A DNA stretch of 64,000 nt from Escherichia coli. GTDB lineage: Bacteria; Pseudomonadota; Gammaproteobacteria; Enterobacterales; Enterobacteriaceae. The DNA lies in assembly GCF_044324875.1 (NCBI RefSeq), contig NZ_CP172185.1; one strand, written 5' to 3'. The notes beneath the pieces were generated by a model that was given only the letters and a program-made list of their open reading frames with translations, ran no database searches and was not told where the DNA came from. Shown here one piece after another: positions 3,159 to 35,381 of this stretch. A program made the translations under genes and the position numbers. How positions within the stretch are numbered: the stretch's first letter is position 1; the number at the start of each line of letters is the position of its first letter.

Positions 3159-3160
3159 CA

Positions 3161-3619
3161 ATGGCTTCCGATAACCTGGTCAGTGTCACCATTAATGATA
3201 AATCCCTGCGCCGGAGCCTCCGTGCGCTGGATCTGGCTGCCACAGACATGGAGCCTGCGATGCGCAAAATCGCCGGAACCCTGCTGGCGGAAACACAGTT
3301 TAACTTTCTTGATGAGGGGCGTCCGGGGTGGATGCCCTCGCTGGCAGCGGAAGAACGTAACGGACAGACACTGCAGGATACCGGGCGTCTGATGGGGTCA
3401 GTATCAACCGAGCATGACGACCGGCAGGCTGTTGTGGGGACCAACGTTGTTTACGGTGCCATTCACCAGTTCGGGGGTAAAACGGGGCGTAATGAGTCTG
3501 TTGAACTTCCGGCCCGCCCGTTCCTGCCGGTGACGGAGGATGGAGAGCTACAGCCTGAAGTGGTAGTCCCCATCCTCGATACCATTGTCCGCCATCTTGA
3601 AGCAGCGGCCCGTCGCTGA
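3161..3619 (+). CDS. Virion morphogenesis protein (Mu G-like)
   Basis: 152 aa ORF immediately after F-like gene; Mu gene order. Confidence 0.65.
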   Translation: MASDNLVSVTINDKSLRRSLRALDLAATDMEPAMRKIAGTLLAETQFNFLDEGRPGWMPSLAAEERNGQTLQDTGRLMGSVSTEHDDRQAVVGTNVVYGAIHQFGGKTGRNESVELPARPFLPVTEDGELQPEVVVPILDTIVRHLEAAARR

Positions 3620-3661
3620 GTTTTCTCTCTTCAGGCGGGTGATTTATCATTGCCAGCGAAT

Positions 3662-3706
3662 GAGGGGCTGTATTACCTTTATAAAGGCTTTACAGCCTCT
3701 GTTTTA
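3662..3706 (+). terminator. Hairpin with embedded perfect palindrome CCTTTATAAAGG, followed by GTTTTAT
   Basis: GAGGGGCTGTA...TACAGCCTCT 10-bp stem with palindromic loop, in the 214-bp gap between G-like and I-like genes. Confidence 0.4.
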
Positions 3707-3833
3707 TAACTGCCTCCGGTTCACCACATTGCTTTCCCTGTCCTTCTCCCCTGATGTTTTCTAAAGCAGATTAAAATCGCCGGGCCCGCATTTCTCACAA
3801 ACTGTCTCCGACAACATAACGCGGGACAGCAAA

Positions 3834-4949
3834 ATGTCAGCCATTCACATTTTTAAAGCCGGTACTCATACCGATATGCACGGCAAAAAACTGCCGTTCA
3901 CGCCAGACGATCTTGCCGCCTGCGTGAAAGCCTATGACCCGTCCGTCCATGAAGCACCACTCGTGATTGGTCATCCCAGAACGGAAGACCCGGCGTGGGG
4001 CTGGGTGAAAGCCCTGTCGCTCAGCGGCGTCGATCTGATGGCAGAGCCTGCCCAGCTGGACCCGCAGTTTGCTGAGATGGTCACCGACGGACGATTCAAA
4101 AAAGTGTCTGCCTCTTTCTACCTCCCGGATTCACCGTCCAATCCGAAGCCCGGCGTGCTCTACCTGCGCCATGTGGGCTTTCTTGGGGCACAGCCACCTT
4201 CCGTCAAAGGACTGAAACAGGTGTCCTTCAGTGAGCAGGAAGAAGGTGTGGTGGAGTTCGCCGACTGGCAGGCCATCACGAATGCCTCACTGTGGGGAAA
4301 GCTGCGCGATTTTCTGATCGCCCGCTTCAGTCTGGACGAAGCAGAAAAAGTTCTGCCGGAATGGCAGCTCAACAGTCTGCGCGAAGAGGCGTACCGCGAC
4401 ACACCGTCGCAGGATGCAGCAGGTGCGCAATTCAGTGAGACAGGCCAGGTGCCGTCTTCCGCAAGTAACGAGGAATCATCGATGACAAAAGAAGAGATTG
4501 AAGCCCTTCAGGCGGAGAACCGCCGCCTGAAGCAGCAGGCTGCTGATCGCGATGCGCGTGATGCACAGGTCAGACAGGAGCAACTGCATAAGGACAATGT
4601 GGCCTTTGCAGAAAAACTGGTCGCAGAGGGCCGTCTGGCTCCCCGCGCCTCCTCCGTGGTGGTTGCCCTGCTGGATTCCGTCGCCGGTGGCGACAAGCCG
4701 GTGGAGTTTGCTGAGGGGGAAAGCCGCACACCGCTGGCCACCGCCTTCCGTTCGCTGCTCTCCGACGGGGAGCCGGTGATGAACTTCGCCGAACAGGCCA
4801 CGAAGGAGCGTGTCGGCGACACGGTGAAAGTGGATGTGACGGAGTTTGCAGAAGCCGACCCTGACCGTCTGGCACTGCACCAGAAGGCTGTGGAACTGTC
4901 GAAAAAAGAAGGCATCAGCTATGAGGCTGCTGTCACACGCTGCCTGTAA
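3834..4949 (+). CDS. Head protease / scaffolding protein (Mu I-like)
   Basis: 371 aa, immediately upstream of major capsid gene; charged coiled-coil-like C-terminal half typical of scaffold. Confidence 0.7.
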   Translation: MSAIHIFKAGTHTDMHGKKLPFTPDDLAACVKAYDPSVHEAPLVIGHPRTEDPAWGWVKALSLSGVDLMAEPAQLDPQFAEMVTDGRFKKVSASFYLPDSPSNPKPGVLYLRHVGFLGAQPPSVKGLKQVSFSEQEEGVVEFADWQAITNASLWGKLRDFLIARFSLDEAEKVLPEWQLNSLREEAYRDTPSQDAAGAQFSETGQVPSSASNEESSMTKEEIEALQAENRRLKQQAADRDARDAQVRQEQLHKDNVAFAEKLVAEGRLAPRASSVVVALLDSVAGGDKPVEFAEGESRTPLATAFRSLLSDGEPVMNFAEQATKERVGDTVKVDVTEFAEADPDRLALHQKAVELSKKEGISYEAAVTRCL

Positions 4950-4958
4950 GGAGAAAGC

Positions 4959-5912
4959 ATGTCTGATTACTTAAAAAATAAACGCGTTGTTGATCCTGTT
5001 ATGACCAGCATCGCGCGTGGCTACAGGAATGCAGCCTTCATCGGAGAACATATATTTCCGGTTGTGTATACGGACAGAGAAGCGGTAACGGTCCCCGTTT
5101 TCGGGAGATCAGCGTTTGTGGAAGTTGATACCGTCCGTGCTGTGGGGGCAGACAGTAATGTTCTGATCAGGGAAAAGAGCAGTACGCTGGATCTGGTGTT
5201 GCATGAGCACGATCTTGCTGCACCTGTGGACTACCGTGAACAGACGGAGTCAATGTTCAACGAAGAGGCCAAGGCAATCCGGCGGGTGACAAATGGCATT
5301 CATCTTCGCCGTGAGCTTATTGCTGCCCGTCTTGCGCAGGACAAAAAAGTGTACCCGGCATCTTCGGTAAAGACGATGACGTCTGTTGAACGCTGGGAAG
5401 GAGGCCATGGTGATCCTGTTGAGGTCATTGAGGGAGGCATTGAAGCTGTGCGAAGTAAGATCGGGGTCAGACCCAATCTGATGGTCATGGGAGCCAGTGT
5501 GATGCCCCTGCTGAGATATCATCCAGCCATCACCACTGCTCTGGGACTTAATGAGAGAAAACGGATCACCCCGCAAATCCTCAGGGAGCTTTTTGGTCTG
5601 GACAAGGTCATTGTGGGTGAGCCTGTTTCCATGGCATCCATGACTGATGCAGGCAACCGGAACAAATATCCGGTGGACATCTGGGGAGATAATCTCATGC
5701 TCTTCTATGTCACTCCACCGCGAGAAGGTGCCGAAAGTGCCGACGAAAATGAACCATCGTTCGGGTATACCCTGCGACGTAAGGGGATGCCGGTGGCAGA
5801 TAAATACGATGGAGTGGGCGGAAAGGTGAAGTACTGCCGTTATACCGACATCTATAAGGTGGCGGTCGTGGGCGGGGATGCCGGTTATCTCGTTACAAAT
5901 ATAGTGAAGTAA
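4959..5912 (+). CDS. Major capsid protein (Mu T-like)
   Basis: 317 aa, strong RBS TAAGGAG, position after protease/scaffold. Confidence 0.8.
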   Translation: MSDYLKNKRVVDPVMTSIARGYRNAAFIGEHIFPVVYTDREAVTVPVFGRSAFVEVDTVRAVGADSNVLIREKSSTLDLVLHEHDLAAPVDYREQTESMFNEEAKAIRRVTNGIHLRRELIAARLAQDKKVYPASSVKTMTSVERWEGGHGDPVEVIEGGIEAVRSKIGVRPNLMVMGASVMPLLRYHPAITTALGLNERKRITPQILRELFGLDKVIVGEPVSMASMTDAGNRNKYPVDIWGDNLMLFYVTPPREGAESADENEPSFGYTLRRKGMPVADKYDGVGGKVKYCRYTDIYKVAVVGGDAGYLVTNIVK

Positions 5913-5922
5913 GGAGAAGTCT

Positions 5923-6258
5923 ATGACTACACAGCAGGTCACTCTGACCATGACAGTCACAGCCAGTACTGCACTTACTCAGCAGAGGTTTGTGGGAGCA
6001 GATAACGGCGCATGTAAGCAGGGTGCCGTTGCCGTCGGTGTCGCCCAGGTGGATGCCCGTGCAGGTGATCTGACCCCGGTGAGTGTGACCGGGATCCTTG
6101 CAGTTGAAACGGGAGCGGCAGTTTCCAGAGGGGCACTGGTACAGTCTGATGCCAAATCAAGGGCTGTTCCTCAGGCTGACAGTGGTAAATCCTGTGGCAT
6201 TGCACTGGATGAGGCAAAGGCCGAAGGCGACATCATCCGTATCCTGCGCGGGGTGTGA
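5923..6258 (+). CDS. Small capsid-associated protein (Ala/Gly/Val-rich, possible decoration protein)
   Basis: 111 aa ORF with RBS TAAGGAG directly after capsid gene. Confidence 0.5.
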   Translation: MTTQQVTLTMTVTASTALTQQRFVGADNGACKQGAVAVGVAQVDARAGDLTPVSVTGILAVETGAAVSRGALVQSDAKSRAVPQADSGKSCGIALDEAKAEGDIIRILRGV

Positions 6259-6259
6259 G

Positions 6260-6706
6260 ATGTACTGCACCCTGGAGGATTTGCTTGCGCAGGTGCCGGA
6301 ACGAACGCTGATCGAGCTCACCAGTGAAGATATGGACTTCGACTCGCCTGCAACAGTGAATACCCGTGTGGTGGACAGCTGTATCCGCTATGCCGACGAG
6401 CTGATTGATGCCCATCTGCGCGGACGCTATATCCTGCCGCTGGCGGAGATACCGACCGTTCTGCGGGACATTGCCATCACGCTGGTCCGTTACCGGCTCT
6501 ACGCCCGCCGCCCGGAAGGTGACCTCCCGGATACGGTGAAGGATGACCACAAAGAAGCGCTGCGGCAACTCAGGGAGTTACGTGATAACAGGCTCACGCT
6601 GGGGCTGCCGTCCACTCAGAAAGATGTGCCTGAGCCAGGAGAGTTTCGTGTACGCAGTCGCCCGGCCACTTTCGGCGGTCGTGACGGTTTACTGGAGAAA
6701 TACTGA
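6260..6706 (+). CDS. Head-tail connector/completion protein (Mu gp36-like)
   Basis: ATG at 6260 two nt after previous stop (MYCTLEDLLAQ...); upstream part of track ORF 6098..6706 overlaps the preceding gene and is rejected. Confidence 0.55.
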   Translation: MYCTLEDLLAQVPERTLIELTSEDMDFDSPATVNTRVVDSCIRYADELIDAHLRGRYILPLAEIPTVLRDIAITLVRYRLYARRPEGDLPDTVKDDHKEALRQLRELRDNRLTLGLPSTQKDVPEPGEFRVRSRPATFGGRDGLLEKY

Positions 6707-7170
6707 TGAACGTTCTGCCCGTCCTTGATGCGGTACTGGCCCGGTTACGCGAGAACCTGCCGCAACTGCAGGTGGAGTACTTCCCGGAGAAACCGGCTGA
6801 ATATCGCCTGAACCATCCGGTTGGCGCGTTGCTGCTGAGCTATGCCGGTTCGCGCTTTGACAGGCCGGATGATACCGGTGCGGTGATCCAGCCTCAGACT
6901 ATCCAGCTCTGCGTCACGGTGGTCTTCCGCCAGCTCAACGGTAAAAAAGGGGCGATTAATGTCCTGGATGCTGTCCGCCGCATTCTCGGTGGCTACACCC
7001 CGCCCGGCTGCCGCCGTCGTATCTGGCTGACCCGCGAGGTGTTTATCGGTGAAGTCAGGGGGCTGTGGCAATACGCCCTCGACTTCGCGACTGAAAGCGT
7101 CTTTATCGAAGACAGCGATTTACCGTCCGGCCCGCTGTTAACCGAAGTGAACTATGAGGAAAGCGAGTGA
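6706..7170 (+). CDS. Head-tail joining / tail completion protein (Mu gp37-like)
   Basis: 154 aa, ATGA overlap with upstream gene. Confidence 0.5.
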   Translation: MNVLPVLDAVLARLRENLPQLQVEYFPEKPAEYRLNHPVGALLLSYAGSRFDRPDDTGAVIQPQTIQLCVTVVFRQLNGKKGAINVLDAVRRILGGYTPPGCRRRIWLTREVFIGEVRGLWQYALDFATESVFIEDSDLPSGPLLTEVNYEESE

Positions 7171-7421
7171 TGAAAGCATACCGCTATTCCGGCCCGGCCA
7201 GCGGCGTCACGCTGTCGGACGGAACCGAAATCCTGCTCTGGCCGGGGAAGACGTTTTCCCTGCCGGAGGAGCATGACTACGTGAAGGTACTGGTGGCGCT
7301 GAAACATCTGACGCCGGTACCTGAAGAGACTAAACTCGCCGGCACACCGGCTGTGCAGTCACCAAAGCGCAGAAGCAGCAGTGACAGCGAAGTGAAAACG
7401 GAGGACACCCATGGCAGCTAA
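7170..7421 (+). CDS. Small conserved phage protein (Mu gp38-like)
   Basis: 83-84 aa ORF overlapping both neighbours, upstream of sheath. Confidence 0.45.
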   Translation: MKAYRYSGPASGVTLSDGTEILLWPGKTFSLPEEHDYVKVLVALKHLTPVPEETKLAGTPAVQSPKRRSSSDSEVKTEDTHGS

Positions 7422-8838
7422 CTATCTGCATGGTCCCGAAACCATTGAGGTGGAAAACGGTGCCCGCCCGGTTAAAACGGTGAAATCTGCCGTTATTGGC
7501 CTGATTGGTACCGCCCCGATGGGGGACGTCAATACGCTGGTACAGTGCCTGTCTGAGAAAGACGCAGCGGCATTTGGCAGCCAGTTCACCGGCTTTACCA
7601 TTCCGCAGGCGCTGGATGCGATTTATGACCATGGTGCAGGCACCGTTCTGGTCATTAACGTCCTCGACCCGGCGAAACATAAAACGGCGATCCAGGGTGA
7701 AGTGGTTACCTTTGACAAATCGACAGGGCAGGCCAGACTTGCGCATCCGGTTGTCGCTAATGTGGTGGTGAAAAACAGTGAAGGCAGCACCACCCACACG
7801 GCGAACACGGACTACCGTGTTGATGCGCAGGCGGGTGTGCTCACGAACCTGGGCAAGGCTATTGAGGCCGGTGGCAGCGTGAAGGTGAGCTATGAGTACG
7901 CGGACCCGTCGAAGGTGACTGCGGCGGACATCATCGGCGGGGTGAACAGCGCCGGAAACCGAACCGGCATGAAGCTGCTTAACGACAGCTTCAACCTGTA
8001 CGGCTATTTTGCCAAAATTCTGATTGCGCCGGTGTTCTGCACCCAGAAGAGTGTAGCAGTTGAGCTTATCGCCATGACAGAGAAGCTGGGCGCGGTAACC
8101 TACATTGATGCGCCTGTCGGTACCACCTTTGCACAGGCTCTGGCAGGTCGTGGCCCGGAAGGCACCATTAACTTCAATACCAGCTCCGACCGCGTCCGTC
8201 TGTGCTATCCGCATGTGAAGGTATATGACCCGGTGACAAACACGGAGCGTCTGGAGCCGCTCAGCCAGCGTGCAGCAGGTCTGCGTGCCAGAGTCGATCT
8301 GGACAAGGGCTACTGGTGGTCATCCTCCAATCAGGAGATTCTGGGGATCACCGGCGTGGAGCGCCAGCTGTCCGCGATGATTGATGACCCGCAGAGTGAG
8401 GTGAACCTGCTTAACGAACAGGGGATCACCACGGTATTCAGCAGTTACGGCAGCGGCCTTCGTCTGTGGGGTAACCGGACGGCAGCATGGCCAACGGTCA
8501 CCCATATGCGTAACTTTGAGAACGTTCGCCGCACCGGTGATGTGATCAACGAGTCCATTCGTTATTTCAGCCAGCAGTACATCGACATGCCGATTACTCA
8601 GGCGCTGATTGATGCACTGACGGAGTCGGTCAACGCCTACGGTCGCAAAATGACTGGTGATGGTGCGGTACTGGGCTTCCGTTGCTGGTTTGATCCGGCC
8701 CGCAATCCGGAGACGGAGCTGGCCGCCGGGCACCTGTTGCTGAGCTACAAATATACGCCACCACCGCCGCTGGAGCGACTGACGTTTGAGACTGAGATCA
8801 CCTCGGAATACCTGTTAACCCTGAAAGGGGGCAACTGA
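7411..8838 (+). CDS. Contractile tail sheath protein
   Basis: 475 aa immediately upstream of tube gene; myovirus sheath size and position. Confidence 0.9.
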   Translation: MAANYLHGPETIEVENGARPVKTVKSAVIGLIGTAPMGDVNTLVQCLSEKDAAAFGSQFTGFTIPQALDAIYDHGAGTVLVINVLDPAKHKTAIQGEVVTFDKSTGQARLAHPVVANVVVKNSEGSTTHTANTDYRVDAQAGVLTNLGKAIEAGGSVKVSYEYADPSKVTAADIIGGVNSAGNRTGMKLLNDSFNLYGYFAKILIAPVFCTQKSVAVELIAMTEKLGAVTYIDAPVGTTFAQALAGRGPEGTINFNTSSDRVRLCYPHVKVYDPVTNTERLEPLSQRAAGLRARVDLDKGYWWSSSNQEILGITGVERQLSAMIDDPQSEVNLLNEQGITTVFSSYGSGLRLWGNRTAAWPTVTHMRNFENVRRTGDVINESIRYFSQQYIDMPITQALIDALTESVNAYGRKMTGDGAVLGFRCWFDPARNPETELAAGHLLLSYKYTPPPPLERLTFETEITSEYLLTLKGGN

Positions 8839-9359
8839 TGTCAAAGATTGAGATAAACCGCATCACGAATGCCAACATCTATCTGGATGGTACTAACCTG
8901 CTGGGACGGGCTGAGGAAGTTAAACTCCCCGATGTCTCCATGATTATGCAGGAACACAAGGCGCTGGGGATGGTGGGTAAGGTGGAACTCCCGGCTGGTT
9001 TTGACAAACTGGAAGGCGAAATCAAATGGAACAGCTTTTACCGCGATGCGATGCTGTCTGCCGCGAACCCGTACAGGTCGCTGGCACTGCAGTGTCGTTC
9101 CAGCGTCCAGCGCTACAGCTCGCAGGGGCTGATTGACGAAATCCCGCTGGTCACCTTCCTGACGATTATGTTCAAGAAGAACCCGCTGGGGACGTTCAAA
9201 CAGCACGAGAACGCCGAGTTCTCCAGTAGCTTCACATGCACGTATATCAGACAGGTACTGGATGGTGAAGAGCTGCTGCAACTGGACTATCTGGCCAACA
9301 TCTTCCGGGTCGGCGGTGTTGATCAACTGACTGACTACCGTATCAATATCGGGGGCTGA
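8838..9359 (+). CDS. Tail tube protein
   Basis: 173 aa, ATGA overlap with sheath. Confidence 0.85.
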   Translation: MSKIEINRITNANIYLDGTNLLGRAEEVKLPDVSMIMQEHKALGMVGKVELPAGFDKLEGEIKWNSFYRDAMLSAANPYRSLALQCRSSVQRYSSQGLIDEIPLVTFLTIMFKKNPLGTFKQHENAEFSSSFTCTYIRQVLDGEELLQLDYLANIFRVGGVDQLTDYRINIGG

Positions 9360-9361
9360 CG

Positions 9362-9643
9362 GTGAGTGTTGAACTGACGGATAAAGGAGGACGATGTGCG
9401 GCACTGGGCATGTCAAATGGTACGTGGTTTACCCTCCTTGATATTCCGGGGGTGGAAACCCTTTTTAATACCCGTAAAACCAATGACCCGATTGACTGCA
9501 CACGTTCAAAGGCCCGCAGACTGGCGGATTTGATTGAAGCATGGGAGCCTCCCGACCACTGGTTCTCCGGCACCGGCAAATCTGAGGGAAAGACGCTTCT
9601 CATCGCTTTCCTGCGTAACTGCAAGGGGTTTCGCACTTGCTGA
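9362..9643 (+). CDS. Hypothetical protein, possible moron between tube and chaperone genes (coding status uncertain)
   Basis: 93-aa ORF from GTG 9362 (or 77 aa from ATG 9410); no family recognised; followed by terminator-like hairpin. Confidence 0.3.
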   Translation: MSVELTDKGGRCAALGMSNGTWFTLLDIPGVETLFNTRKTNDPIDCTRSKARRLADLIEAWEPPDHWFSGTGKSEGKTLLIAFLRNCKGFRTC

Positions 9644-9649
9644 CATCAC

Positions 9650-9675
9650 AGGGGCTCCGGCCCCTTCTTCTTAAT
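9650..9675 (+). terminator. Rho-independent terminator-like hairpin
   Basis: AGGGGC-TCCG-GCCCCT stem-loop followed by TCTTCTT. Confidence 0.5.
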
Positions 9676-9740
9676 CTCCTTTAATATCCGTCACGCGCTT
9701 CTCCCGACATACTGCCCTGAACTTACACAGGAGCACAATC

Positions 9741-10076
9741 ATGTCACAGACCCCATCCGATACTTTTAAATTGTCTTATCCCTTCACCACTGCTGCAGGC
9801 ACCAGAATTGAGCTGGTTGAACTGAAACGCCTGACGGTAAAAGACCTGAAGCAGGTGCGCAAAATCAGCAAAAACCCGGCAGACTGGGACGAACCGCTGA
9901 TTGCCCGCAGTACTGGTCTTCTCCCGGAAGATCTCGACAATATGGATCTGGCTGATTACCTGCAGTTACAGAAACGATTTCAGCTCATCACGGGGATGGG
10001 TGAGAGCGACAAAGGCGCTGACGCAGGCGCAGGGGCTGCTGGCGAGATGGTTCCGGTTTCAGCCGGGGGAGATTGA
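9741..10076 (+). CDS. Tail assembly chaperone (P2 gpE / lambda G analogue)
   Basis: 111 aa between tube and tape measure genes; RBS AGGAG before ATG. Confidence 0.65.
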   Translation: MSQTPSDTFKLSYPFTTAAGTRIELVELKRLTVKDLKQVRKISKNPADWDEPLIARSTGLLPEDLDNMDLADYLQLQKRFQLITGMGESDKGADAGAGAAGEMVPVSAGGD

Positions 10077-10158
10077 TGCCCTCGATACTGACGATCTGGA
10101 GATGTGGCTGGAGCAGGCTGAAGAGCAAATAAAAAGCGAGTACGGCGACAAATCATAG
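9901..10158 (+). other. Overlapping open frame (+1 relative to chaperone); candidate programmed-frameshift extension
   Basis: Frame open 9901-10158 with no ATG; G5 run at 10062-10070 just before the chaperone stop. Confidence 0.4.
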
Positions 10159-10163
10159 TACAG

Positions 10164-10190
10164 ACAGCCGCCAGTAGCGGCTGTTCTGCG
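10164..10190 (+). terminator. Hairpin ACAGCCGC-CAGTA-GCGGCTGT after chaperone region
   Basis: 8-bp perfect stem, weakly U-rich tail. Confidence 0.3.
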
Positions 10191-10233
10191 TTATCCCCTC
10201 ACGTCTTTTCACCTTCCCCGGAGGTTAACCACT

Positions 10234-13185
10234 ATGTCGGGACAGTTTTCAGTCGGCGTTGTTATCGGCGGGATGATTGGCAGCACATTCCGTTCTGCAA
10301 TGAGCGGTACCCGCCGTGCGCTTGATTCCCTGAGCGATACCTCACGCCGCCTGCAGGAACGTCAGAACGCTTTAACCCGTGCAACAGAACGTTATGGTCA
10401 ACTGGGCTCTTCCCGGATGCAGCATCTCAACAGCGAGCTGCTGCGGGTAAGCCGCACCATGGAGCAAATTGAGCGCCAGCAGCGCCGTCTGTCAGCGGCA
10501 TCAGCCACCAGTGATGCGCTGAAAGCTAACCGCATGGCGCTGTATGGTCAGGGGATTGAAGCGTATGGCATGGCACAGACTGTTTATCATACGGTTTCCC
10601 CTGCCGTTCAGCAGTCCATGTCTTTTCAGGACAAAATGATTGATATGTCGATCACCGCAAAATATGACAATAAAACGCGGGATGCACTTGCCGGACAGAT
10701 AAAAGGCTGGGCGCAAAAATACAATCAGTATCAGGATGAACTGCAGGAGGCGGTGGGTTCGCTCATCAGCGACAATATTGATAACTTGTCAGATATCGGT
10801 TTTCTGATGCCGGATATTGCCCGCGCGGCAACGGCAACACGCACGTCATCTCAGGACTGGGCAAAAGTGGCCGCAGTCTGGCAAAACTCCCTGAAAGGTG
10901 CGGCCAGAGATTTTAGTGCCGTCCAGAATATTATGGCTTATGCCGGTGACCAGGGGTCATTTGAAATCCCGGATCAGGTCAAGTGGATGCAGTCCCTGGC
11001 CCCAATGATGGCGGGTATTGCCAGTGGAAAAGAGGCTGTTGCTGAAATCGGGGCCAGTCTCCAGATAGCAAAAATCGGTGCGGGCTCCACCGACGAAGCA
11101 GCCAATAATTTTAAAAACTTTCTTACCAAAATTTTTGCCCGCGATACTCAGAAACAGTTTGCTGATCTGGGTATTGATTTGCAGGGTTCTGTTGCGAGTT
11201 ATAAGGCTGCGGGGATCTCTCCGATTGAAGGGATGTTGAGTGTTATAGAACGTTACCTCAATGCCAAAAGCCCCGAAGCGCTGGCCGGCTTCAAATCCGC
11301 CATGAAAATAAAGAATGATACGGCAAGAGATGAGGCACTTCAGGCTCTGGCGAAAAACTTTGGTCTGGGCGATATGTTCGCGGATATGCAGGTCATGGCA
11401 TTTATCCGCCCGATGCTGGCCAACATGGACAGATATCGCGAGATCCGTGCCGGTGCTCTCAGGGCTGCGGATAACGATTTGCTTGCCAGTGCTTACGATC
11501 AGCGGCTGAAATCTCCCCTTGAAGCCACTAAAGCGCTTATGGTCAGCAGTCGCGATCTGGCTATTACGCTGGGCGATCAGCTCGCCCCCTCTTTTATTTC
11601 TCTGACTCAGGAGCTGATCCCACTCATTCAGGGGGCAAAACACTGGGTGGCGACTCACCCGCAATTTGTCAGTGGGGCTTTTAAGCTCATCAGTGCGCTC
11701 CTTGCGATTAAGATAGCGACTGTTGGTCTCAAACTGGGGCTGAATCTCCTTATTTCCCCCTTTGTGAACGTCTGGAAAACTGCTGTTTTACTCCGGACCA
11801 ACTGGCATCGACTGACTACCGCACTAGGAGAAGGTGGCAAATTACGCTGGCTTGTCACTGGATTTAGCCGACTGACCAGCGGAGGACTGAAACTCAGCAA
11901 AGTTCTGGCGGGCAGCCTCGTTCGCGGTTTTATGAGCGCTGCACGTGCCGTTCTCTGGATTGGGCGAGCGCTGATGATGAATCCCATCGGTCTCGTTATC
12001 ACCGCTGTCGCGGCAGCAGCTTACCTTATCTACCGCAACTGGGGGACAGTCAGTGGCTGGTTTAAACAGCGCTGGGCTGACATTCAGGAAGCCTTTAACG
12101 GCGGTATCGCGGGAACTGGTAAGCTGCTGATTAACTGGTCGCCGGCAGGGCTGCTCTATAAAGCCTTTGCGGCTGCGCTGAAATATTTCGGCGTTGCTCT
12201 GCCGGCAAAGTTCACCGACTTCGGTGGCCATCTTGTCGACGGTCTGATTAACGGTATCAAAAACAAATGGGGGTCGCTCAAATCCAGTGTAACCGGAATG
12301 GGTGACAGCATCAGTAGCTGGTTTAAACAGTGCTGGTCTGACATTCAGGAGGCCTTTAACGGCGGTATCGCGGGAACTGGTAAGCTGCTGATTAACTGGT
12401 CGCCGGCAGGTCTGCTCTATAAAGCCTTTGCAGCTGCGCTGAAATATCTTGGTGTTGATCTGCCGGCAAAGTTCACCGACTTCGGTGGCCATCTTGTCGA
12501 CGGTCTGATTAACGGTATCAAAAACAAATGGGAGTCGCTCAAATCCAGTGTAACCGGAATGGGTGACAGCATCAGTGGCTGGTTCAGTGAAAAGCTGGGT
12601 ATTCATTCGCCGAGCCGCGTGTTTATGGGCTTTGGTGACAATATCGCGCAGGGGGCCGCCATTGGCCTGCAGCGGAGCACTCCGATTGCAGCTCTGGCCG
12701 GGCAGCGAATGGCCAGTGAACTGCTCCCCAGAATGCCCGTGAGCATTCAGGGGCCAGAAATACGGGATAACACTTCAGGTGTTCGCTTCAGTATGCCGTT
12801 GCCCGATATCAACGGGTTTATGTCGTCTGCTAAAAATGCGATCGGATCCGTAATCAATAGTTTGTCTTCCATGCCCGCTATTCCGATCTCCACCCGGGCA
12901 TCGACTTTACCAGGTCAACGTCTGGCAAATGAGATGACACCGGATGTTCCCCGTATCCCCTCGCCTGAAATCCTGGCTGCCGGATATTCAGGCCGTGGTG
13001 CAGCTGCAACCGGCGGTGGAACGTCTGGTGGTATCCAGGTCAGCTTTAATCCTCAGTTTTTCCTCAATGGCAGGGAAACCACAGCGCCTGCAGGACTGAC
13101 TGGTGCCCTGAATATGAGTCTGCATGAGCTGGAAAAAATGCTGGAGCGTCTGCTGGCTCAGAAACAACGTAAGGAGTACCGCTGA
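10234..13185 (+). CDS. Tail tape measure protein
   Basis: 983 aa, N-terminal coiled-coil-like region, hydrophobic core segments, position between chaperone and baseplate genes. Confidence 0.9.
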   Translation: MSGQFSVGVVIGGMIGSTFRSAMSGTRRALDSLSDTSRRLQERQNALTRATERYGQLGSSRMQHLNSELLRVSRTMEQIERQQRRLSAASATSDALKANRMALYGQGIEAYGMAQTVYHTVSPAVQQSMSFQDKMIDMSITAKYDNKTRDALAGQIKGWAQKYNQYQDELQEAVGSLISDNIDNLSDIGFLMPDIARAATATRTSSQDWAKVAAVWQNSLKGAARDFSAVQNIMAYAGDQGSFEIPDQVKWMQSLAPMMAGIASGKEAVAEIGASLQIAKIGAGSTDEAANNFKNFLTKIFARDTQKQFADLGIDLQGSVASYKAAGISPIEGMLSVIERYLNAKSPEALAGFKSAMKIKNDTARDEALQALAKNFGLGDMFADMQVMAFIRPMLANMDRYREIRAGALRAADNDLLASAYDQRLKSPLEATKALMVSSRDLAITLGDQLAPSFISLTQELIPLIQGAKHWVATHPQFVSGAFKLISALLAIKIATVGLKLGLNLLISPFVNVWKTAVLLRTNWHRLTTALGEGGKLRWLVTGFSRLTSGGLKLSKVLAGSLVRGFMSAARAVLWIGRALMMNPIGLVITAVAAAAYLIYRNWGTVSGWFKQRWADIQEAFNGGIAGTGKLLINWSPAGLLYKAFAAALKYFGVALPAKFTDFGGHLVDGLINGIKNKWGSLKSSVTGMGDSISSWFKQCWSDIQEAFNGGIAGTGKLLINWSPAGLLYKAFAAALKYLGVDLPAKFTDFGGHLVDGLINGIKNKWESLKSSVTGMGDSISGWFSEKLGIHSPSRVFMGFGDNIAQGAAIGLQRSTPIAALAGQRMASELLPRMPVSIQGPEIRDNTSGVRFSMPLPDINGFMSSAKNAIGSVINSLSSMPAIPISTRASTLPGQRLANEMTPDVPRIPSPEILAAGYSGRGAAATGGGTSGGIQVSFNPQFFLNGRETTAPAGLTGALNMSLHELEKMLERLLAQKQRKEYR
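12058..12582 (+). repeat. Direct tandem duplication, 2 x 261 bp (87 aa), inside tape measure gene
   Basis: Copies at about 12058-12318 and 12319-12579 differ at about 11 positions. Confidence 0.9.
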
Positions 13186-14069
13186 TGTTTGCCGTACTGG
13201 GTGATATTGAGTTTGATCTGATTACCTACTGGGACGGCTTCGAGGCCACGTTCGGCGTCGATTATGCGGAGCATGCCCGCATCGGGGGTAAGCCTGGCCT
13301 GCAGTTCGTCGGCGACAGGCTGGACGAAATCCAGATAAGTCTGGTCTTCCATCAGCATTATTGTGCACCCGATGTGGAGCTGGCGAGACTGCGAACAACC
13401 ATGAAAGCCCATCAGGCACTGGCGCTGGTCTTCGGCAACGGTGACTATCGTGGCTGGTTCGTGATTACCGATGTGACCGCAACCAGCGAGCAGACAGACA
13501 GCACCGGTAACGTGCTGGCTGTCAGTGCCACCGTGTCTCTCCGGGAATACACCGGTGATCCGAAAAATCCTCTGCAACCACCGGCAATACGCACGAAGCT
13601 CCCGGGTGTCGGGGCGGTCTCCGGTGCCATTCCTTCACCTTCAGGGGTGGCGCAGTTCATCCGCAACGGCGTCAACTATGCGAAACAGGCGCAGTCTGTA
13701 CTCCAGACCACTATCAGCGCCGTTCGGGTGACACAGAAAATGAAGGATAACCCCGTTGTCGCACTGACCCGTGTGCCGGGGCTGATGAGCGGACTGGGTA
13801 ATATCTCCGGGGCTCTGGGGAAAAGTGTTCCGGCGTTTAACGCACTCTCTGAATCCATGCCCGATGCCATCAGTCTGGCCAGAACAGCCAGCGAAGCAGC
13901 CACGTATGTACAGCAGGCACAGTCTGCGCTGAGTGGTGTGGACAAAAGAAATATTGCAGGTGCTCTGGATACCGTTTCCGGGCAGCTTAACGCCGCCAGC
14001 ACAGCATTCAACCGCATGTCTCCGGGATTAAGTGCAATGGCCGCCAGAATACTGACGAGGAGTGTGTGA
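13185..14069 (+). CDS. Tail protein (P2 gpU-like / DNA-circulation N-domain family)
   Basis: 294 aa, ATGA overlap with tape measure, position before baseplate hub. Confidence 0.6.
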   Translation: MFAVLGDIEFDLITYWDGFEATFGVDYAEHARIGGKPGLQFVGDRLDEIQISLVFHQHYCAPDVELARLRTTMKAHQALALVFGNGDYRGWFVITDVTATSEQTDSTGNVLAVSATVSLREYTGDPKNPLQPPAIRTKLPGVGAVSGAIPSPSGVAQFIRNGVNYAKQAQSVLQTTISAVRVTQKMKDNPVVALTRVPGLMSGLGNISGALGKSVPAFNALSESMPDAISLARTASEAATYVQQAQSALSGVDKRNIAGALDTVSGQLNAASTAFNRMSPGLSAMAARILTRSV

Positions 14070-14281
14070 TGTTTCTTGAACATGTTACCCGTGACGGAGA
14101 GCGCTGGGATTCGCTGGCATGGCAGTACTACGGTGACCCGCTGGGCTATCCCCGGATTATTGCCGCCAATCCGCACGTGGCCATCACGCCGGTGCTGCCC
14201 TCCGGGCTGTTGTTACTGATCCCGGTGATTGAGGCTGAAGAAGCCCGTACAGAAGAGGATATTGCCCCATGGCTGAGATAA
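14069..14281 (+). CDS. Tail protein X-like (small LysM-like)
   Basis: 70 aa, ATGA overlap; resembles P2 gpX pattern. Confidence 0.55.
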   Translation: MFLEHVTRDGERWDSLAWQYYGDPLGYPRIIAANPHVAITPVLPSGLLLLIPVIEAEEARTEEDIAPWLR

Positions 14282-15423
14282 ACAGCACTGCGCAAGTCAC
14301 TTCAGCGTTAACCAGCGTCAGCGATGTGCTGACACCGGTGTTCACTCTGTGGTATCTGCAGAAAAACATCACCTCTGATATCGCGCCTTATGTCACCCGT
14401 GTGACCTGGAGCGATAACATCAAAAATGAGTCCGATACCATTGAGGTGGAGCTGGACGACACCGATGGCCGCTGGCTGGATAAGTGGTATCCGGGCAAGG
14501 GTGACACGCTGACGCTGAAAATGGGCTATCAGGGCGAGAAGCTGCTGTCCTGCGGTACGTTCTCTATAGACGAGATCGAAGTGAGTTCGCCCGCTTCCGT
14601 TGTTTCTATCCGTGGGGTGGCCACCTCGGTTAACAGTGCTCTGCGGACTAAAACCAGTCGTGGTTTTGAGAACACCACGCTGGCAGCTGTTGCGGGGCGG
14701 ATTGCCAGAAAGCACCGACTGAAACTGGTGGGCAGCATTGAGTCCATCAGAATCGACCGGGTGACCCAGTATGCTGAAACCGACGTGGGTTTTCTGCGCC
14801 GGCTGGCCAGCGAGTATGGTTATGCAGTGAAAGTGGTCAGTGACCAGCTGATTTTTTCTCATCTGGCCACACTGCGCAGTCAGGAGCCGGTCAGGCAGTT
14901 AAAACCGCAGGATGTGGCCCGCTTTTCCCTGCGTGACACCATCAACCGGGTCTATAAATCTGCAAAGGTAAAACACCAGAAAAGCAGCAGTAAAAAACTG
15001 ATCGTCTACGAAGCTGATGGTGGTACCCGTGAAAGCGACAAAAAGCTCAAAGGTGGTAAGGTTACCAGCGCTGACTCACTTAAAGTTAACAGCCGCGTCA
15101 GCGACCCGGACAGTGCCCGGATTAAAGCGGATTCAGCACTGGCCAGACATAACGAATACCAGCAGAACGGCTCCCTGACGCTGACGGGAACACCTCAACT
15201 GACAGCAGGCAACAAAATTGAACTGGTGGGTTTTGGGCAGTTATCCGGGCCATGGCTCATAACCACTGCCCGCCATGCGTTTGACCGTAACAGCGGCTAC
15301 ACCACAGAGCTGGAAGTGGCACGGGGGCCAGTCACAAGAGGGAAAAAACAAAAAACTCAGAAACTCACGGTTTATCACCCGGATGGCAGTACATCGACGG
15401 TGATTAAGGAGAAGAAAAAATGA
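14269..15423 (+). CDS. Baseplate hub / tail protein (P2 gpD-like, Mu P-like)
   Basis: 384 aa, position between X-like and spike genes. Confidence 0.75.
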   Translation: MAEINSTAQVTSALTSVSDVLTPVFTLWYLQKNITSDIAPYVTRVTWSDNIKNESDTIEVELDDTDGRWLDKWYPGKGDTLTLKMGYQGEKLLSCGTFSIDEIEVSSPASVVSIRGVATSVNSALRTKTSRGFENTTLAAVAGRIARKHRLKLVGSIESIRIDRVTQYAETDVGFLRRLASEYGYAVKVVSDQLIFSHLATLRSQEPVRQLKPQDVARFSLRDTINRVYKSAKVKHQKSSSKKLIVYEADGGTRESDKKLKGGKVTSADSLKVNSRVSDPDSARIKADSALARHNEYQQNGSLTLTGTPQLTAGNKIELVGFGQLSGPWLITTARHAFDRNSGYTTELEVARGPVTRGKKQKTQKLTVYHPDGSTSTVIKEKKK

Positions 15424-16016
15424 CTGGTGTCACTCGTCAGGTCGGTACGGTCAGTGCCGTTGATGCCGACAGGGTTCAGGCCCGCGTTCGTCTGCCTGAA
15501 TGCGATAACCTGCGCACAAACTGGCTTAACGTGCTGCAGCGCAATACCCAGGATAACAAAGATTACTGGCTCCCTGACGTGGGGGAGCAGGTTGAGGTGC
15601 TGCTCGATGCCAACGGCGAGGATGGTGTTATTCTGGGCGCGGTGTATTCAGACGTCGATAAACCACCGTTCAGTGACAAAAATATCCGGGGAACCCGGTT
15701 TGCTGATGGTGCAGAGTACAGCTACAACCGGAAGACGCACACTCTGACCATCCGGGGCGGCATTGAGCATATTGTCATTGAGTGTGGTGCTGATGTGGTA
15801 TTGAAAACACAGAAAGCCACGATTGACGCACCGGAAACCGAACTTACCGGAGATCTGCGTGTCAGGGGAAAGCTGATTTACGAAGGAGGCATGGCGGGTT
15901 CTGGTGGTAAAGGTGTTACCGCGACCATCCATGGCAATATCGAGATTAAAGGGAATGCCCATGCCACGGGCAGTATGCTGTCTGATGGCGAAAACTCCAG
16001 CCACCACTCCCACTGA
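15420..16016 (+). CDS. Baseplate spike (gpV-like)
   Basis: 198 aa, ATGA overlap, Gly-rich C-terminus. Confidence 0.75.
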   Translation: MTGVTRQVGTVSAVDADRVQARVRLPECDNLRTNWLNVLQRNTQDNKDYWLPDVGEQVEVLLDANGEDGVILGAVYSDVDKPPFSDKNIRGTRFADGAEYSYNRKTHTLTIRGGIEHIVIECGADVVLKTQKATIDAPETELTGDLRVRGKLIYEGGMAGSGGKGVTATIHGNIEIKGNAHATGSMLSDGENSSHHSH

Positions 16017-16070
16017 GCTTCTTAAACGCCTTTAATATCAGCGTTCCCGCACGGGGGCAATACTGCCCCC

Positions 16071-16418
16071 ATGAAAACGACCTCAGTATTCTGGCAACCA
16101 GCCCTGCAGGCTCCCGGCGAAATTGTCCGGGGGCTGGATGATATCCGGCAGGCGATTCAAATTATCCTGCGGACTCCCCGCGGCAGCGACCCGCATCGCC
16201 CGGAGTTCGGCAGCAATCTGCATCTTTATATCGACTGGCCTGTAGACCGGGCCATTCCGCATGTGGTGCGCGAATCCGTCGATGCCATCCGGCGCTGGGA
16301 GCCCCGCTGCCAGCTTATGTCAGTTAAACCCGCCGTCGACGGCGAACATCTTACGCTCCGGGTGAGCTGGAAAGGCTCAGACGGACAGACCCGGACTCAG
16401 GAGCTGCTATGGCGCTGA
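16071..16418 (+). CDS. Baseplate wedge protein (GPW/gp25-like)
   Basis: 115 aa with WEPR motif; immediately before J-like gene. Confidence 0.75.
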   Translation: MKTTSVFWQPALQAPGEIVRGLDDIRQAIQIILRTPRGSDPHRPEFGSNLHLYIDWPVDRAIPHVVRESVDAIRRWEPRCQLMSVKPAVDGEHLTLRVSWKGSDGQTRTQELLWR

Positions 16419-17512
16419 CAGAACCCGATTTTATTGAACGCGATGCCGACAAAATCACGGCAGAAATGATTGCGAAGTATGAAGCGGATACCGGCAAAAC
16501 GCTGTACCCGGCACAGGCAGAACGTCTGCTGATTGATCTGTGGGCCTATCGCGAAATGCTGGTCAGGGTTGCGGTACAGGAGGCAGCAAAGCAGAATCTG
16601 GTCGCCTTTGCCCGTGAGCCGATGATTGATTACCTCGGTGAACTGGTCGGTGTATACCGTCTTGCCGCGCAGCCTGCCACCACCACGCTCCAGTTCTCCG
16701 TAGATGAGGCACTGGCCATTGATGTGCTGATCCCGGCAGGCACCCGCGTCAGCGCTTCCGACAGCGTTATTTTTGCCACCGATACAGATGTGGTACTGAA
16801 GCCCGGATTGCTGCTGGTCAATGTCACGTCCACCTGTACCGAACCCGGTACCGCTGGTAACGGCTGGCAACCTGCGCAGGTCAGTCAGTTACTCGATGAG
16901 ATTGATAACGTCGACCTGCTGGTGAGCAATCTGACGGCCAGTTCCGGCGGTTCAGAACAGGAAGACGATGACAGGCTCCGGGAGCGTATCAGGCTGGCCC
17001 CGGAGTCATTCACCAATGCCGGAAGCCGTGGCGCATACCGCTTTCATGCCATGCAGGCCCATCCCAACATTGTCGATGTTGCTGTGCTTTCCCCGGTTCC
17101 CGGGACCGTAGATCTGTATCCGCTGCTCAGTACCGGTCTGCCGGACGGCGGTGTTCTCACGCTGGTAGAGAGTTTCTGCTCTGATGAGAAAGTCAGGCCA
17201 CTCACTGATACAGTGCGGGCTAAAACACCAGTGAAGGTGGATTACACCATTGAAGCCAGGATTACGATCTATCGTGATCAGGATGCCAGGTCTGTAAAAG
17301 ATGCCGCTAACAGCGCCATACAGAACTGGGTGGCATCACGTGCCGCCACGCTGGGGCGTGATATTGTCCCCAGCCAGATTATCAGTGCATTGTCCGTTTC
17401 CGGGGTGTACCAGGTTGAACTGGTGACACCGGCACTGCGGGTGGTGGCAGAAAACGAATGGGCAAACTGTACGGCAATCACTCTTAACATGAGTGGAGTG
17501 TCTGATGACTGA
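16409..17512 (+). CDS. Baseplate J-like protein
   Basis: 367 aa, position and size. Confidence 0.8.
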   Translation: MALTEPDFIERDADKITAEMIAKYEADTGKTLYPAQAERLLIDLWAYREMLVRVAVQEAAKQNLVAFAREPMIDYLGELVGVYRLAAQPATTTLQFSVDEALAIDVLIPAGTRVSASDSVIFATDTDVVLKPGLLLVNVTSTCTEPGTAGNGWQPAQVSQLLDEIDNVDLLVSNLTASSGGSEQEDDDRLRERIRLAPESFTNAGSRGAYRFHAMQAHPNIVDVAVLSPVPGTVDLYPLLSTGLPDGGVLTLVESFCSDEKVRPLTDTVRAKTPVKVDYTIEARITIYRDQDARSVKDAANSAIQNWVASRAATLGRDIVPSQIISALSVSGVYQVELVTPALRVVAENEWANCTAITLNMSGVSDD

Positions 17513-18083
17513 GCCATTACAACTCCCGCCACCGCTTGAGGGTGATATCAGTCTCAGGACGCTGGGAAGACTGGCAGGACGGCTGGATAACATCGACCTG
17601 AGCGTACTGATGGTCTTTCTCGTCGATATCGTCGACAGTTCCGCGCTGCCATGGCTGGGCGAGCAGTTCTCACTGTCTGGCGATGGCTGGGAGCTGGCGG
17701 AATCGGACGATGTTCGCCGCATGCTTATAAAAGCAGCCATCGAACTGCACCGGTATAAAGGGACGCCGTGGTCAATCCGGGAAGTTATCCGCCGTTTTGG
17801 CTTTGGTGAAGTGGATCTGATTGAAGGCACAGGTCGTCTCAGTTACGACGGCAATCGCAGCTATAACGGACTGTTTGTTCATGGAGATGCAGCCGCCTGG
17901 GCAGTTTATCGCGTTATTCTGAAACAGCCCATTACTAACGATCAGGCCGCGATGCTGCGTCAGACGCTGGCTGCATTTGCACCGGCCCGCTGCCATCTGG
18001 CCAGCCTGGAGTATCAGTCTGTGGCCATTCGCTATAACAATACCGCCATCCATGATGGCAGTTATAACCACGGGAGCAGTTGA
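17505..18083 (+). CDS. Baseplate/tail protein (P2 gpI-like)
   Basis: ATG at 17505 overlapping J stop; 192 aa, directly before fibre gene. Confidence 0.7.
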   Translation: MTEPLQLPPPLEGDISLRTLGRLAGRLDNIDLSVLMVFLVDIVDSSALPWLGEQFSLSGDGWELAESDDVRRMLIKAAIELHRYKGTPWSIREVIRRFGFGEVDLIEGTGRLSYDGNRSYNGLFVHGDAAAWAVYRVILKQPITNDQAAMLRQTLAAFAPARCHLASLEYQSVAIRYNNTAIHDGSYNHGSS

Positions 18084-35304: not shown

Positions 35305-35381
35305 GCGTTCATAGCTCAGTTGGTTAGAGCACCACCTTGACATGGTGGGGGTCGTTGGTTCGAGTCCAATTGAACGCACCA
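35305..35381 (+). tRNA. valV: tRNA-Val (GAC)
   Basis: GCGTTCATAGCTCAGTTGGTTAGAGCACCACCTTGACATGGTGG...CCA, 77 nt. Confidence 0.95.

What the first reader, a model, noticed from the sequence alone, without database searches (positions are those of the whole stretch)
12058..12582. 261-bp in-frame tandem duplication in the tape measure gene
Two adjacent 87-aa units (WFKQ.W.DIQEAFNGGIAGTGKLLINWSPAGLLYKAFAAALKY...MGDSIS) differ at about 11 nucleotides, so this is an old duplication rather than an assembly error. Tape measure length sets tail length, so relatives lacking the second unit should have shorter tails, by very roughly 13 nm if about 0.15 nm per residue holds.
Basis: partly seen in the sequence, partly recalled or inferred. 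Interest (0 to 1): 0.45.

Follow-up and report, generated by a model that had tools for sequence, protein, structure and literature searches.

The report
Variable-copy 87-residue repeat in tape measure
The tail-length "ruler" gene of a Mu-like E. coli prophage carries a real in-frame 261-bp tandem duplication, and close relatives carry one, two or three copies of it, so it is a natural length series for a known mechanism rather than a new kind of system.

Summary
Two head-to-tail 261-bp units lie at 12058-12318 and 12319-12579. They differ at 11 nucleotides, have no indels, and are in frame in the 983-aa tape measure ORF (10234-13185).

Relatives do differ in copy number:
- 896 aa: one unit
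- 983 aa: two units
- 1070 aa: three units
- no four-unit allele was seen

In 5,426 complete E. coli genomes, 631 carry the unit, 571 carry at least one unit-unit junction, and 59 carry a one-unit array.

Copy number changes repeatedly by unequal homologous recombination. Strain IPCEC48 (one unit) has flanks identical to an ST131 two-unit allele over 2,430 nt. Its single unit is an exact u1/u2 chimera. At least three contraction breakpoints and two expansion types are visible.

Units differ by dS 0.09-0.17 with dN/dS 0.2-0.35, so the duplication is old and both copies are constrained. The same module is duplicated independently, with other periods, in distant tape measure proteins.

The predicted tail-length step of about 13 nm is inferred from the ruler principle. 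No measurement was available. This is a new member of a known kind, of modest interest.

The parts
10234..13185 (+). Tail tape measure protein gene (983 aa)
   Evidence: ORF. TIGR01760 at 56.6 bits (cutoff 28.8) over residues 119-493. PF10145 over residues 159-345. RefSeq annotates the identical gene in AR_0085 as phage tail tape measure protein.
12058..12318 (+). Repeat unit 1 (87 aa, residues 609-695). Derived states F44, A47, G72 and S87 lie in its 3' part.
12319..12579 (+). Repeat unit 2 (87 aa, residues 696-782). Derived states C5 and S7 lie at its 5' end. Its 3' part matches the single-copy relatives.
12050..12062 (+). 13-nt direct repeat TCAGTGGCTGGTT (encodes S-G-W-F) at the left edge of the array. 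It recurs at 12311-12323 (one mismatch) and at 12572-12584.
   Evidence: The same 13-mer flanks the single unit in the one-unit allele L002, so it is a candidate microhomology for the first duplication (inference).
12572..12584 (+). 13-nt direct repeat at the right edge of the array
11956..12042 (+). Conserved hydrophobic segment (WIGRALMMNPIGLVITAVAAAAYLIYRNW) immediately upstream of the repeat
   Evidence: Translation. Conserved across 39 distant homologues in alignment A1.
12577..12624 (+). Conserved motif GWFSEKLGIHSPSRVF immediately downstream of the repeat
   Evidence: S145, P146, S147 and F150 are invariant. It matches the C-terminal part of the phage 80alpha tape measure protein in PDB 6v8i.
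9741..10076 (+). Tail assembly chaperone gene (P2 gpE-like) upstream of the tape measure gene
   Evidence: ORF. Annotated as phage tail assembly protein in the identical AR_0085 copy.
7411..8838 (+). Tail sheath gene, which marks a contractile tail
   Evidence: PhiKM annotates its counterpart as tail sheath monomer GpFI.
8838..9359 (+). Tail tube gene
   Evidence: TIGR01611 at 255 bits

Best explanation
The feature is a tandem, in-frame duplication of an 87-residue, mostly alpha-helical module in the C-terminal third of the tape measure protein. The gene belongs to a Mu-like (Bcepmuvirus-like) E. coli prophage with a P2-type contractile tail.

Shown: the locus varies in copy number. Alleles with 1, 2 or 3 units share the same 608-aa N-terminal and 201-aa C-terminal parts. 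Shown: units are gained and lost by unequal homologous recombination between misaligned 261-bp units. Chimeric units with single switch points in otherwise identical genes demonstrate this.

Inferred: the first duplication probably used the 13-nt direct repeat TCAGTGGCTGGTT, which flanks the unit in one-unit alleles.

Inferred from the established ruler role of tape measure proteins: each unit lengthens the protein inside the tail tube. Tube and sheath polymerisation would then stop about 13 nm later, roughly 3-4 tube/sheath rings. This predicts virions with three discrete tail lengths.
For: The repeat is real and in frame.

Tape measure genes in complete genomes are 2691, 2952 and 3213 nt, with 1, 2 and 3 units.

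Among the 120 best 90%-identity protein clusters, 27 have one unit, about 70 have two, about 22 have three, and none have four. Flanks are a constant 608 and 201 aa.

Copy number is mixed within each N-terminal backbone cluster.

Census of 5,426 complete genomes:
- 631 genomes carry 1,475 units
- 571 genomes carry 777 unit-unit junctions
- 59 genomes carry a one-unit array

IPCEC48 (one unit) compared with ST131 strain 4/4 (two units) shows 0 differences in 1,824 + 606 nt of flank. Its single unit equals u1 at positions 12-13 and equals u2 at all 14 informative sites from position 93 onward.

Other one-unit alleles switch at positions 93-114 (UPEC129, MLI114) or 246-259 (F1140).

Three-unit alleles are of two kinds:
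- u1 | u2-head + u1-tail | u2 (strain C9)
- u1 | u1 | u2 (strain STIN_95)

dN/dS between units is 0.21-0.35, similar to the flanks at 0.11-0.42. All alleles keep the reading frame.

AlphaFold2 on a 39-sequence alignment predicts the unit as four helices, about 87% helical, with mean pLDDT 71 for the whole 180-residue model.

Ruler principle: shortening lambda gene H shortens the tail proportionally (Katsura and Hendrix 1984, as cited in PMC3271669). TP901-1 tape measure deletions and a duplication change tail length linearly (PMC5099701). That paper also states that the T4 tape measure protein sets tail length in a myovirus.

PhiKM, an isolated phage 97.7% identical in this gene, has at least two units. 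Its assembly breaks inside the repeat.
Against: No tail length has been measured for any allele. No paper on PhiKM or on these prophages' morphology was found.

The predicted helices are broken at Gly-Gly, Ser-Pro and Leu-Pro positions, and the model's pTM is only 0.33. The unit could therefore fold back on itself and add less than 0.15 nm per residue.

The module carries strongly conserved motifs (NWSPxGLxYKAF), which suggests a role beyond that of a spacer.

Whether the window's own prophage is inducible is unknown.

Short-read assemblies can collapse such repeats into chimeric single units. Only the one-unit alleles found in complete genomes were used for the recombination argument, and even those depend on assembly quality.
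Confidence: 0.75

Rival explanations
1. The duplication is real but has little or no effect on tail length. The extra 87 residues would be absorbed by folding into a helical hairpin, or would sit in the baseplate or membrane-interacting end of the tape measure protein. Tail length would then change by less than 13 nm per unit, or not at all.
For: The predicted helices are interrupted at conserved Gly/Pro positions, and the tertiary arrangement is not reliable (pTM 0.33). The unit lies next to a hydrophobic segment and next to the conserved C-terminal motif. That motif aligns with the part of the 80alpha tape measure protein deposited in PDB entry 6v8i.
Against: In every system tested experimentally, internal in-frame length changes of tape measure proteins changed tail length roughly in proportion. 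In TP901-1 this included deletions in a hydrophobic region (PMC5099701). The same module has been duplicated independently many times in distant tape measure proteins. That pattern is easier to understand if the segment belongs to the adjustable ruler.
Confidence: 0.17
2. The 11 differences did not accumulate after an in-place duplication. The two units instead came from two already diverged single-unit alleles, joined by one unequal or illegitimate recombination event. Under this view, the claimed age reflects allele divergence rather than the age of the duplication.
For: The 3' part of unit 1 keeps outgroup-like synonymous states (G at 114, C at 132 and 135). Unit 2 shares derived states at those sites with the one-unit alleles. 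All derived states cluster around the internal junction. dS between units equals or exceeds the deepest backbone divergence.
Against: No single-unit allele with the full u1-type 3' half (F44, A47, G72, S87) was seen among the more distant single-unit relatives. The junction-centred pattern can also arise another way: recombination with single-unit alleles could homogenise only the outer parts of the array. This rival changes the origin story only. It does not change what the feature is or does.
Confidence: 0.3
3. The variation is neutral decay in a defective prophage, and the gene no longer builds tails.
For: Most carriers are clonal clinical E. coli lineages that inherit the prophage vertically. 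One three-unit gene is annotated as a pseudogene in RefSeq.
Against: Among the 87 full-length cluster representatives (896, 983 or 1070 aa), every length difference is a multiple of 87 aa. dN/dS is 0.2-0.35 in the units and 0.11-0.42 in the flanks. The RefSeq 'pseudogene' translates as an uninterrupted 1070-aa ORF. PhiKM was deposited as an isolated phage.
Confidence: 0.05
4. The duplication is an assembly artefact.
For: The PhiKM assembly has a 100-N gap inside this repeat, which shows the region is hard to assemble from short reads.
Against: The two units differ at 11 fixed sites. The same two-unit gene is found in hundreds of independently assembled complete genomes.
Confidence: 0.01

Closest known systems
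Phage lambda gene H in-frame deletions and duplications (Katsura and Hendrix 1984; Katsura 1987)
   Same: An internal in-frame length change in the tape measure gene, with the expectation that tail length scales with protein length at about 0.15 nm per residue.
   Different: Those were laboratory constructs in a non-contractile siphovirus tail. Here the series (1, 2, 3 units) is natural, recurrent, and in a contractile P2-type tail. No tail lengths have been measured.
Lactococcal phage TP901-1 tape measure protein mutants (Pedersen 2000; Mahony 2016, PMC5099701)
   Same: Deletions and a duplication inside the tape measure protein gave proportional tail-length changes. The authors proposed that repeats make duplication and deletion easier.
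   Different: TP901-1 repeats are 11 or 18 aa units marked by aromatic residues. The unit here is 87 aa, has no detectable internal period, and is 93% identical between copies.
Variable 11-aa tandem repeats in tape measure proteins (Belcaid, Bergeron and Poisson 2011, PMC3271669)
   Same: Natural duplication and loss of tandem units in tape measure genes, compared between related prophages.
   Different: The earlier work concerns short 11-aa units in many copies, in prophages such as those of Clostridium botulinum. Here there is one long 87-aa module in 1-3 copies, with recombination breakpoints resolved at nucleotide level.
Tape measure proteins of BcepMu-like and P2-like phages (Burkholderia phiE255, KS14, phiE202; Ralstonia and Pseudomonas phages)
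   Same: They contain the same module (44-51% identity) at the same place, between the hydrophobic segment and the GWFxEKLGIHSPSR motif.
   Different: All 133 more distant sequenced-phage records with a match show a single copy. Multi-copy versions were seen only in the E. coli group, and with other periods in uncharacterised genome and metagenome proteins.
T4 gp29 tape measure protein (Abuladze 1994, from my own knowledge; cited generally in PMC5099701)
   Same: Shows that the ruler principle also holds for contractile tails.
   Different: No detectable sequence relationship was tested or claimed.

Membership tests
Phage tail tape measure protein (TIGR01760 / Pfam PF10145) | Match to the family profile above the curated threshold | tested here: met
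   TIGR01760 at 56.6 bits against a cutoff of 28.8, residues 119-493. PF10145 at E 2.1e-20, residues 159-345.
Phage tail tape measure protein (TIGR01760 / Pfam PF10145) | Gene position: after sheath, tube and tail assembly chaperone genes, and before tail-completion and baseplate genes | tested here: met
   The order is sheath 7411-8838, tube 8838-9359, chaperone 9741-10076, tape measure 10234-13185, then the U-like, X and D-like genes.
Phage tail tape measure protein (TIGR01760 / Pfam PF10145) | Protein length determines tail length | not testable with these tools
   This needs electron microscopy of virions from alleles of different length.
Natural tandem-repeat length variation in tape measure genes (Belcaid type) | Head-to-tail, in-frame repeat units inside the gene | tested here: met
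   Period 261 nt (87 aa), no indels, in frame.
Natural tandem-repeat length variation in tape measure genes (Belcaid type) | Different unit numbers in closely related phages or prophages | tested here: met
   One, two and three units on backbones that are identical or nearly so.
Natural tandem-repeat length variation in tape measure genes (Belcaid type) | Short 11-aa (or 18-aa) period marked by regularly spaced Trp/Phe | tested here: not met
   No significant sub-repeat within the unit: half-unit alignment scored 27, against a shuffle mean of 22 +/- 4.4. No further copies elsewhere in the protein. The feature works like that family but uses a different, much longer unit.
Mu-like (Bcepmuvirus-like) transposable phage with a P2-type tail | Close relationship to a classified member, together with a DDE transposase and Mu-type head genes joined to P2-type tail genes | tested here: met
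   PhiKM (Bcepmuvirus) is 97.7% identical over the tape measure gene. AR_0085 matches window 1-19546 at 99.85% and carries, upstream of the window start, a DDE transposase. It also carries DUF935 portal and Mu F/G-type genes. The transposase itself lies outside the window.

The most novel reading that the evidence does not exclude
The 87-residue module could be a contingency-type length switch. Frequent RecA-mediated gain and loss of units would give a prophage population a standing mix of three tail lengths. Selection by host envelope, capsule or O-antigen thickness would maintain that mix. The same module would have been recruited repeatedly as the adjustable ruler segment across a wide tape measure protein family.
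Probability: 0.12. Interest if true: 0.6.

Novelty: new member of a known kind. Interest (0 to 1): 0.35.

Why it matters
Tape measure length setting tail length is textbook knowledge, but it rests mostly on engineered mutants of a few siphoviruses and T4. This locus offers a natural allelic series of 896, 983 and 1070 aa in a contractile-tailed phage family. That family is present in about 12% of complete E. coli genomes, including many labelled ST131.

One pair of alleles has identical tape measure gene flanks and identical neighbouring tail proteins, and differs by a single unit. That pair allows a clean test of nanometres per residue, and of how a continuous ruler is rounded to whole sheath and tube rings.

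There are practical consequences too. The repeat breaks or collapses in short-read assemblies: PhiKM has a gap there, and one intact gene is annotated as a pseudogene. Tape measure length in draft genomes of this group should therefore not be trusted.

Tried and rejected
1. I looked for weaker extra copies of the unit elsewhere in the protein and for an internal half-repeat. None was significant, so this is a simple two-unit array and not part of a longer periodic region.

2. I looked for a four-unit allele. None was found among the 120 top-scoring protein clusters, where it would have ranked first. The genome with the most units (9) and the genome with the most junctions (6) fit three arrays of three units each. 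A four-unit allele is not excluded.

3. I asked whether repeat periods in distant homologues share a common divisor that could correspond to one tube ring. The periods are 43, 50, 54, 69-76, 83, 87, 91, 105 and 113-114 aa, and no common unit is evident.

4. I searched for a publication on PhiKM or on tail measurements for this phage group. The only hits were unrelated phiKMV papers.

5. Literature searches for 'tape measure' with 'unequal crossing' or with 'in-frame duplication' returned nothing.

6. A paper describing a conserved ST131 prophage with an R2-pyocin-like tail (PMC9205054) may concern the same or a neighbouring element. It does not mention the tape measure gene, and I did not establish identity.

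7. A whole-protein sequence search of the PDB found nothing. A profile of the unit region found only distant tape measure proteins (9m8o, 6v8i, 8kea, 9d93). No solved structure of this module in a tail was identified.

8. I did not use chimeric one-unit proteins from draft assemblies as evidence of recombination, because repeat collapse could create them. Only complete genomes were used.
Full report
**Observation**

Tandem Repeats Finder reports a single array at 12050-12584 with period 261, 2.0 copies, 95% matches and no indels. Comparing each base with the base 261 further on gives 11 mismatches between 12058 and 12318. Similarity is lost abruptly outside about 12050-12323.

The array begins at codon 609 of a 983-aa ORF (10234-13185, + strand) and is in frame. 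The two 87-aa units differ at six residues. The exact two-unit span is 12058-12579.

A 13-nt sequence, TCAGTGGCTGGTT, sits at both outer edges and, with one mismatch, at the internal junction.

**What the gene and the element are**

The ORF matches TIGR01760 (tape_meas_TP901) above its curated cutoff, over residues 119-493, and PF10145 over residues 159-345. It follows sheath, tube (TIGR01611, 255 bits) and tail assembly chaperone genes. It precedes genes annotated as tail protein, tail protein X and late control D protein.

The nearest phage record is Escherichia phage PhiKM (Bcepmuvirus), at 97.7% identity over the gene. Strain AR_0085 carries a copy that matches window 1-19546 at 99.85%. 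Upstream of the window start it has a DDE transposase, and it also has Mu-type head genes. "Mu-like phage with a P2-type contractile tail" is therefore an accurate description.

**Relatives differ in copy number**

In complete E. coli genomes the homologous genes have these lengths:

| Gene length | Units | Strains |
|---|---|---|
| 2691 nt | 1 | MLI114 |
| 2952 nt | 2 | the window and many others |
| 3213 nt | 3 | C9, STIN_95, AVS0969 |
| 2466-2679 nt | 1 | more distant relatives, 84-90% identity over the unit |

A search of 5.8 billion protein clusters returned 120 best hits. Of these, 27 have one unit, about 70 have two and about 22 have three. The 87 full-length representatives all have a 608-aa N-terminal part and a 201-aa C-terminal part. 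None have four units, and a four-unit protein would have scored highest.

I also ran a census of 5,426 complete genomes with three dedicated queries:
- The single unit matched 631 genomes and 1,475 places.
- A 54-nt probe across the unit-unit junction matched 571 genomes and 777 places.
- A synthetic one-unit allele was covered at 80% or more in 59 genomes.

This implies about 698 arrays. Most have two units. In the spread samples, 11 of 60 genomes (about 18%) belonged to the three-unit group, and 17 of 60 junction-bearing genomes (about 28%) had two or more junctions. A minority have one unit. The sample is strongly clonal, with many genomes labelled ST131, so these are counts of genomes and not of evolutionary events.

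**How copy number changes**

IPCEC48 (one unit) and ST131 strain 4/4 (two units) have no differences in the 1,824 nt before the array or in the 606 nt after it. Their annotated neighbouring proteins are identical.

The IPCEC48 unit equals unit 1 of strain 4/4 at positions 12-13. It equals unit 2 at all 14 informative sites from position 93 onward. A duplication of the IPCEC48 unit could not produce two units that differ at 16 sites. The direction must therefore be loss of exactly one period, by a single crossover between misaligned units.

Other one-unit alleles in complete genomes switch between positions 93 and 114 (UPEC129, MLI114) or between 246 and 259 (F1140).

Three-unit alleles come in two forms:
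- In C9 the middle unit has the head of the last unit (positions 13-59) and the tail of the first unit (from position 67).
- In STIN_95 the first two units are nearly identical.

Both forms are expected products of unequal crossing-over between two-unit arrays. At least three contractions and two expansions are therefore visible. Copy number is mixed within each backbone cluster.

Chimeric single units also abound in draft assemblies. I did not count those, because short-read collapse would mimic them.

**Age and constraint**

Using single-unit relatives as outgroups, unit 1 carries derived states at codons 44, 47, 72 and 87. Unit 2 carries derived states at codons 5 and 7. The same diagnostic states occur in the three-unit alleles.

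dS between units is 0.09-0.17, at least as large as dS between the most divergent backbones (0.06-0.15). dN/dS is 0.21-0.35, similar to the flanks. The duplication, or the divergence of the two unit lineages, is therefore old, and both copies are under purifying selection.

Derived states cluster around the internal junction. Unit 1 also keeps some outgroup-like synonymous states that unit 2 has lost. This leaves open whether the array arose from two already diverged alleles.

The 13-nt direct repeat also flanks the single unit in MLI114. It is present in degenerate form in the more distant relatives. That makes it a plausible site for the first, illegitimate duplication, but this is an inference.

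**The module in the wider family**

A tblastn search of 50,697 phage records found the module in 136 records, with one matching place per record. The 133 more distant ones are mostly Burkholderia, Ralstonia and Pseudomonas phages at about 44-51% identity.

A full HMMER scan of 1.84 billion representative proteins found 628 hits. Among the best 150, 27 contain two to four tandem copies. Their periods differ: 43, 50, 54, 69-76, 83, 87, 91, 105 and 113-114 aa. Copies within a protein are 43-72% identical where the fixed-period alignment holds. For P0123 (period 113-114) my fixed-period count was out of register and is not informative.

In every case checked, the copies lie between the conserved hydrophobic segment (LLMNPIGL...AYLIYxNW) and the GWFxEKLGIHSPSRVF motif. 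This segment of the family has therefore been duplicated independently many times. The window's array is the youngest and cleanest example I found. Pfam has no model for the module.

**Mechanism and its limits**

AlphaFold2 on a 39-sequence alignment of single-unit homologues predicts the unit as four helices, about 87% helical. Mean pLDDT is 71 for the whole model, and the 10-residue block means across the unit run from 86 down to about 50-54 near its end. pTM is 0.33, so the packing of the helices is not informative.

The ruler principle rests on published work:
- Shortening lambda gene H shortens tails (Katsura and Hendrix 1984, as cited in PMC3271669).
- TP901-1 tape measure deletions give a linear tail-length series from 118 to 65 nm.
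- In earlier work, a duplication of 29% of the TP901-1 protein lengthened the tail by about 30% (PMC5099701).
- The same paper states that the T4 protein sets tail length in a myovirus.

On that basis each unit should add about 13 nm. Taking a ring rise of about 4 nm for contractile tails, from my own knowledge, that is 3-4 rings. Tails are built of whole rings, so the real step must be rounded.

None of this was measured. No paper on PhiKM or on these prophages' morphology was found.

**Comparison with what is known, and verdict**

The feature works like the lambda, TP901-1 and T4 ruler variants. It also resembles the natural repeat gains and losses described by Belcaid et al. It is not a member of the 11-aa Trp/Phe repeat class, since no such period is present.

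It is a new member of a known kind: a long-unit, low-copy, recombination-driven length polymorphism in a P2-type tape measure protein. Its value lies in the natural allele series with near-identical backbones, and in a caution about assemblies and annotation of this gene. PhiKM has a 100-N gap inside the repeat but clearly contains at least two units. The AVS0969 gene is annotated as a split pseudogene although it translates as an intact 1070-aa ORF.

Noticed in passing
window 18314-19097 (inside ORF 18080-19798, +): There is a second in-frame tandem repeat, in the tail fibre gene. It has period 300 nt (100 aa), 2.6 copies and 98% identity. The units contain a recurring QLSSA...SET.AATPKAVK.AYDLA motif. 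Like the tape measure repeat, it could vary in copy number between relatives.
   Followed up: partly
window 19332-20939, with ORF 20874-21575 (+): This segment, which covers the tail-fibre C-terminus and assembly genes, is in the opposite orientation to the otherwise 99.9% identical prophage in E. coli AR_0085. A gene annotated there as 'recombinase family protein' lies next to it. This looks like a Mu G-segment-type invertible host-range switch caught in two states.
   Followed up: partly
L001 (PhiKM, PQ738613) 13435-13534: The deposited PhiKM genome has a 100-N gap inside the tape measure repeat, and the gene is annotated as two CDS. Sequence on both sides covers unit positions 16-90, so the phage has at least two units.
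   Followed up: yes
L006 (E. coli AVS0969, CP124475) 943-4155: RefSeq annotates this three-unit tape measure gene as two incomplete pseudogene fragments. The region translates as one uninterrupted 1070-aa ORF. This is probably an annotation artefact caused by the repeat.
   Followed up: partly
window 21653 onward, compared with L010 (AR_0085) 31420 onward: The window and AR_0085 diverge just past the recombinase gene. In AR_0085 the Mu-like prophage abuts P2-like lysis and head genes, including a truncated lysB. This suggests insertion into a resident P2-like prophage there. The window has a different neighbourhood, as expected for a transposable phage.
   Followed up: no
window 35305-35381 and 35386-35462 (+): Two adjacent tRNA-Val(GAC) genes were picked up as an 81-bp tandem repeat. 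This is an ordinary host feature.
   Followed up: yes
window 11842-12606 (-): A 254-aa antisense ORF overlaps the repeat region of the tape measure gene. It is most likely a by-product of the composition and the duplication. It was not examined.
   Followed up: no
L007-L009 (E. coli MS20655, EcPF16, 2014C-3075): More distant one-unit relatives have 821-aa tape measure proteins, 75 aa shorter than the 896-aa one-unit form. A second region of length variation must therefore exist outside the 87-aa module.
   Followed up: no
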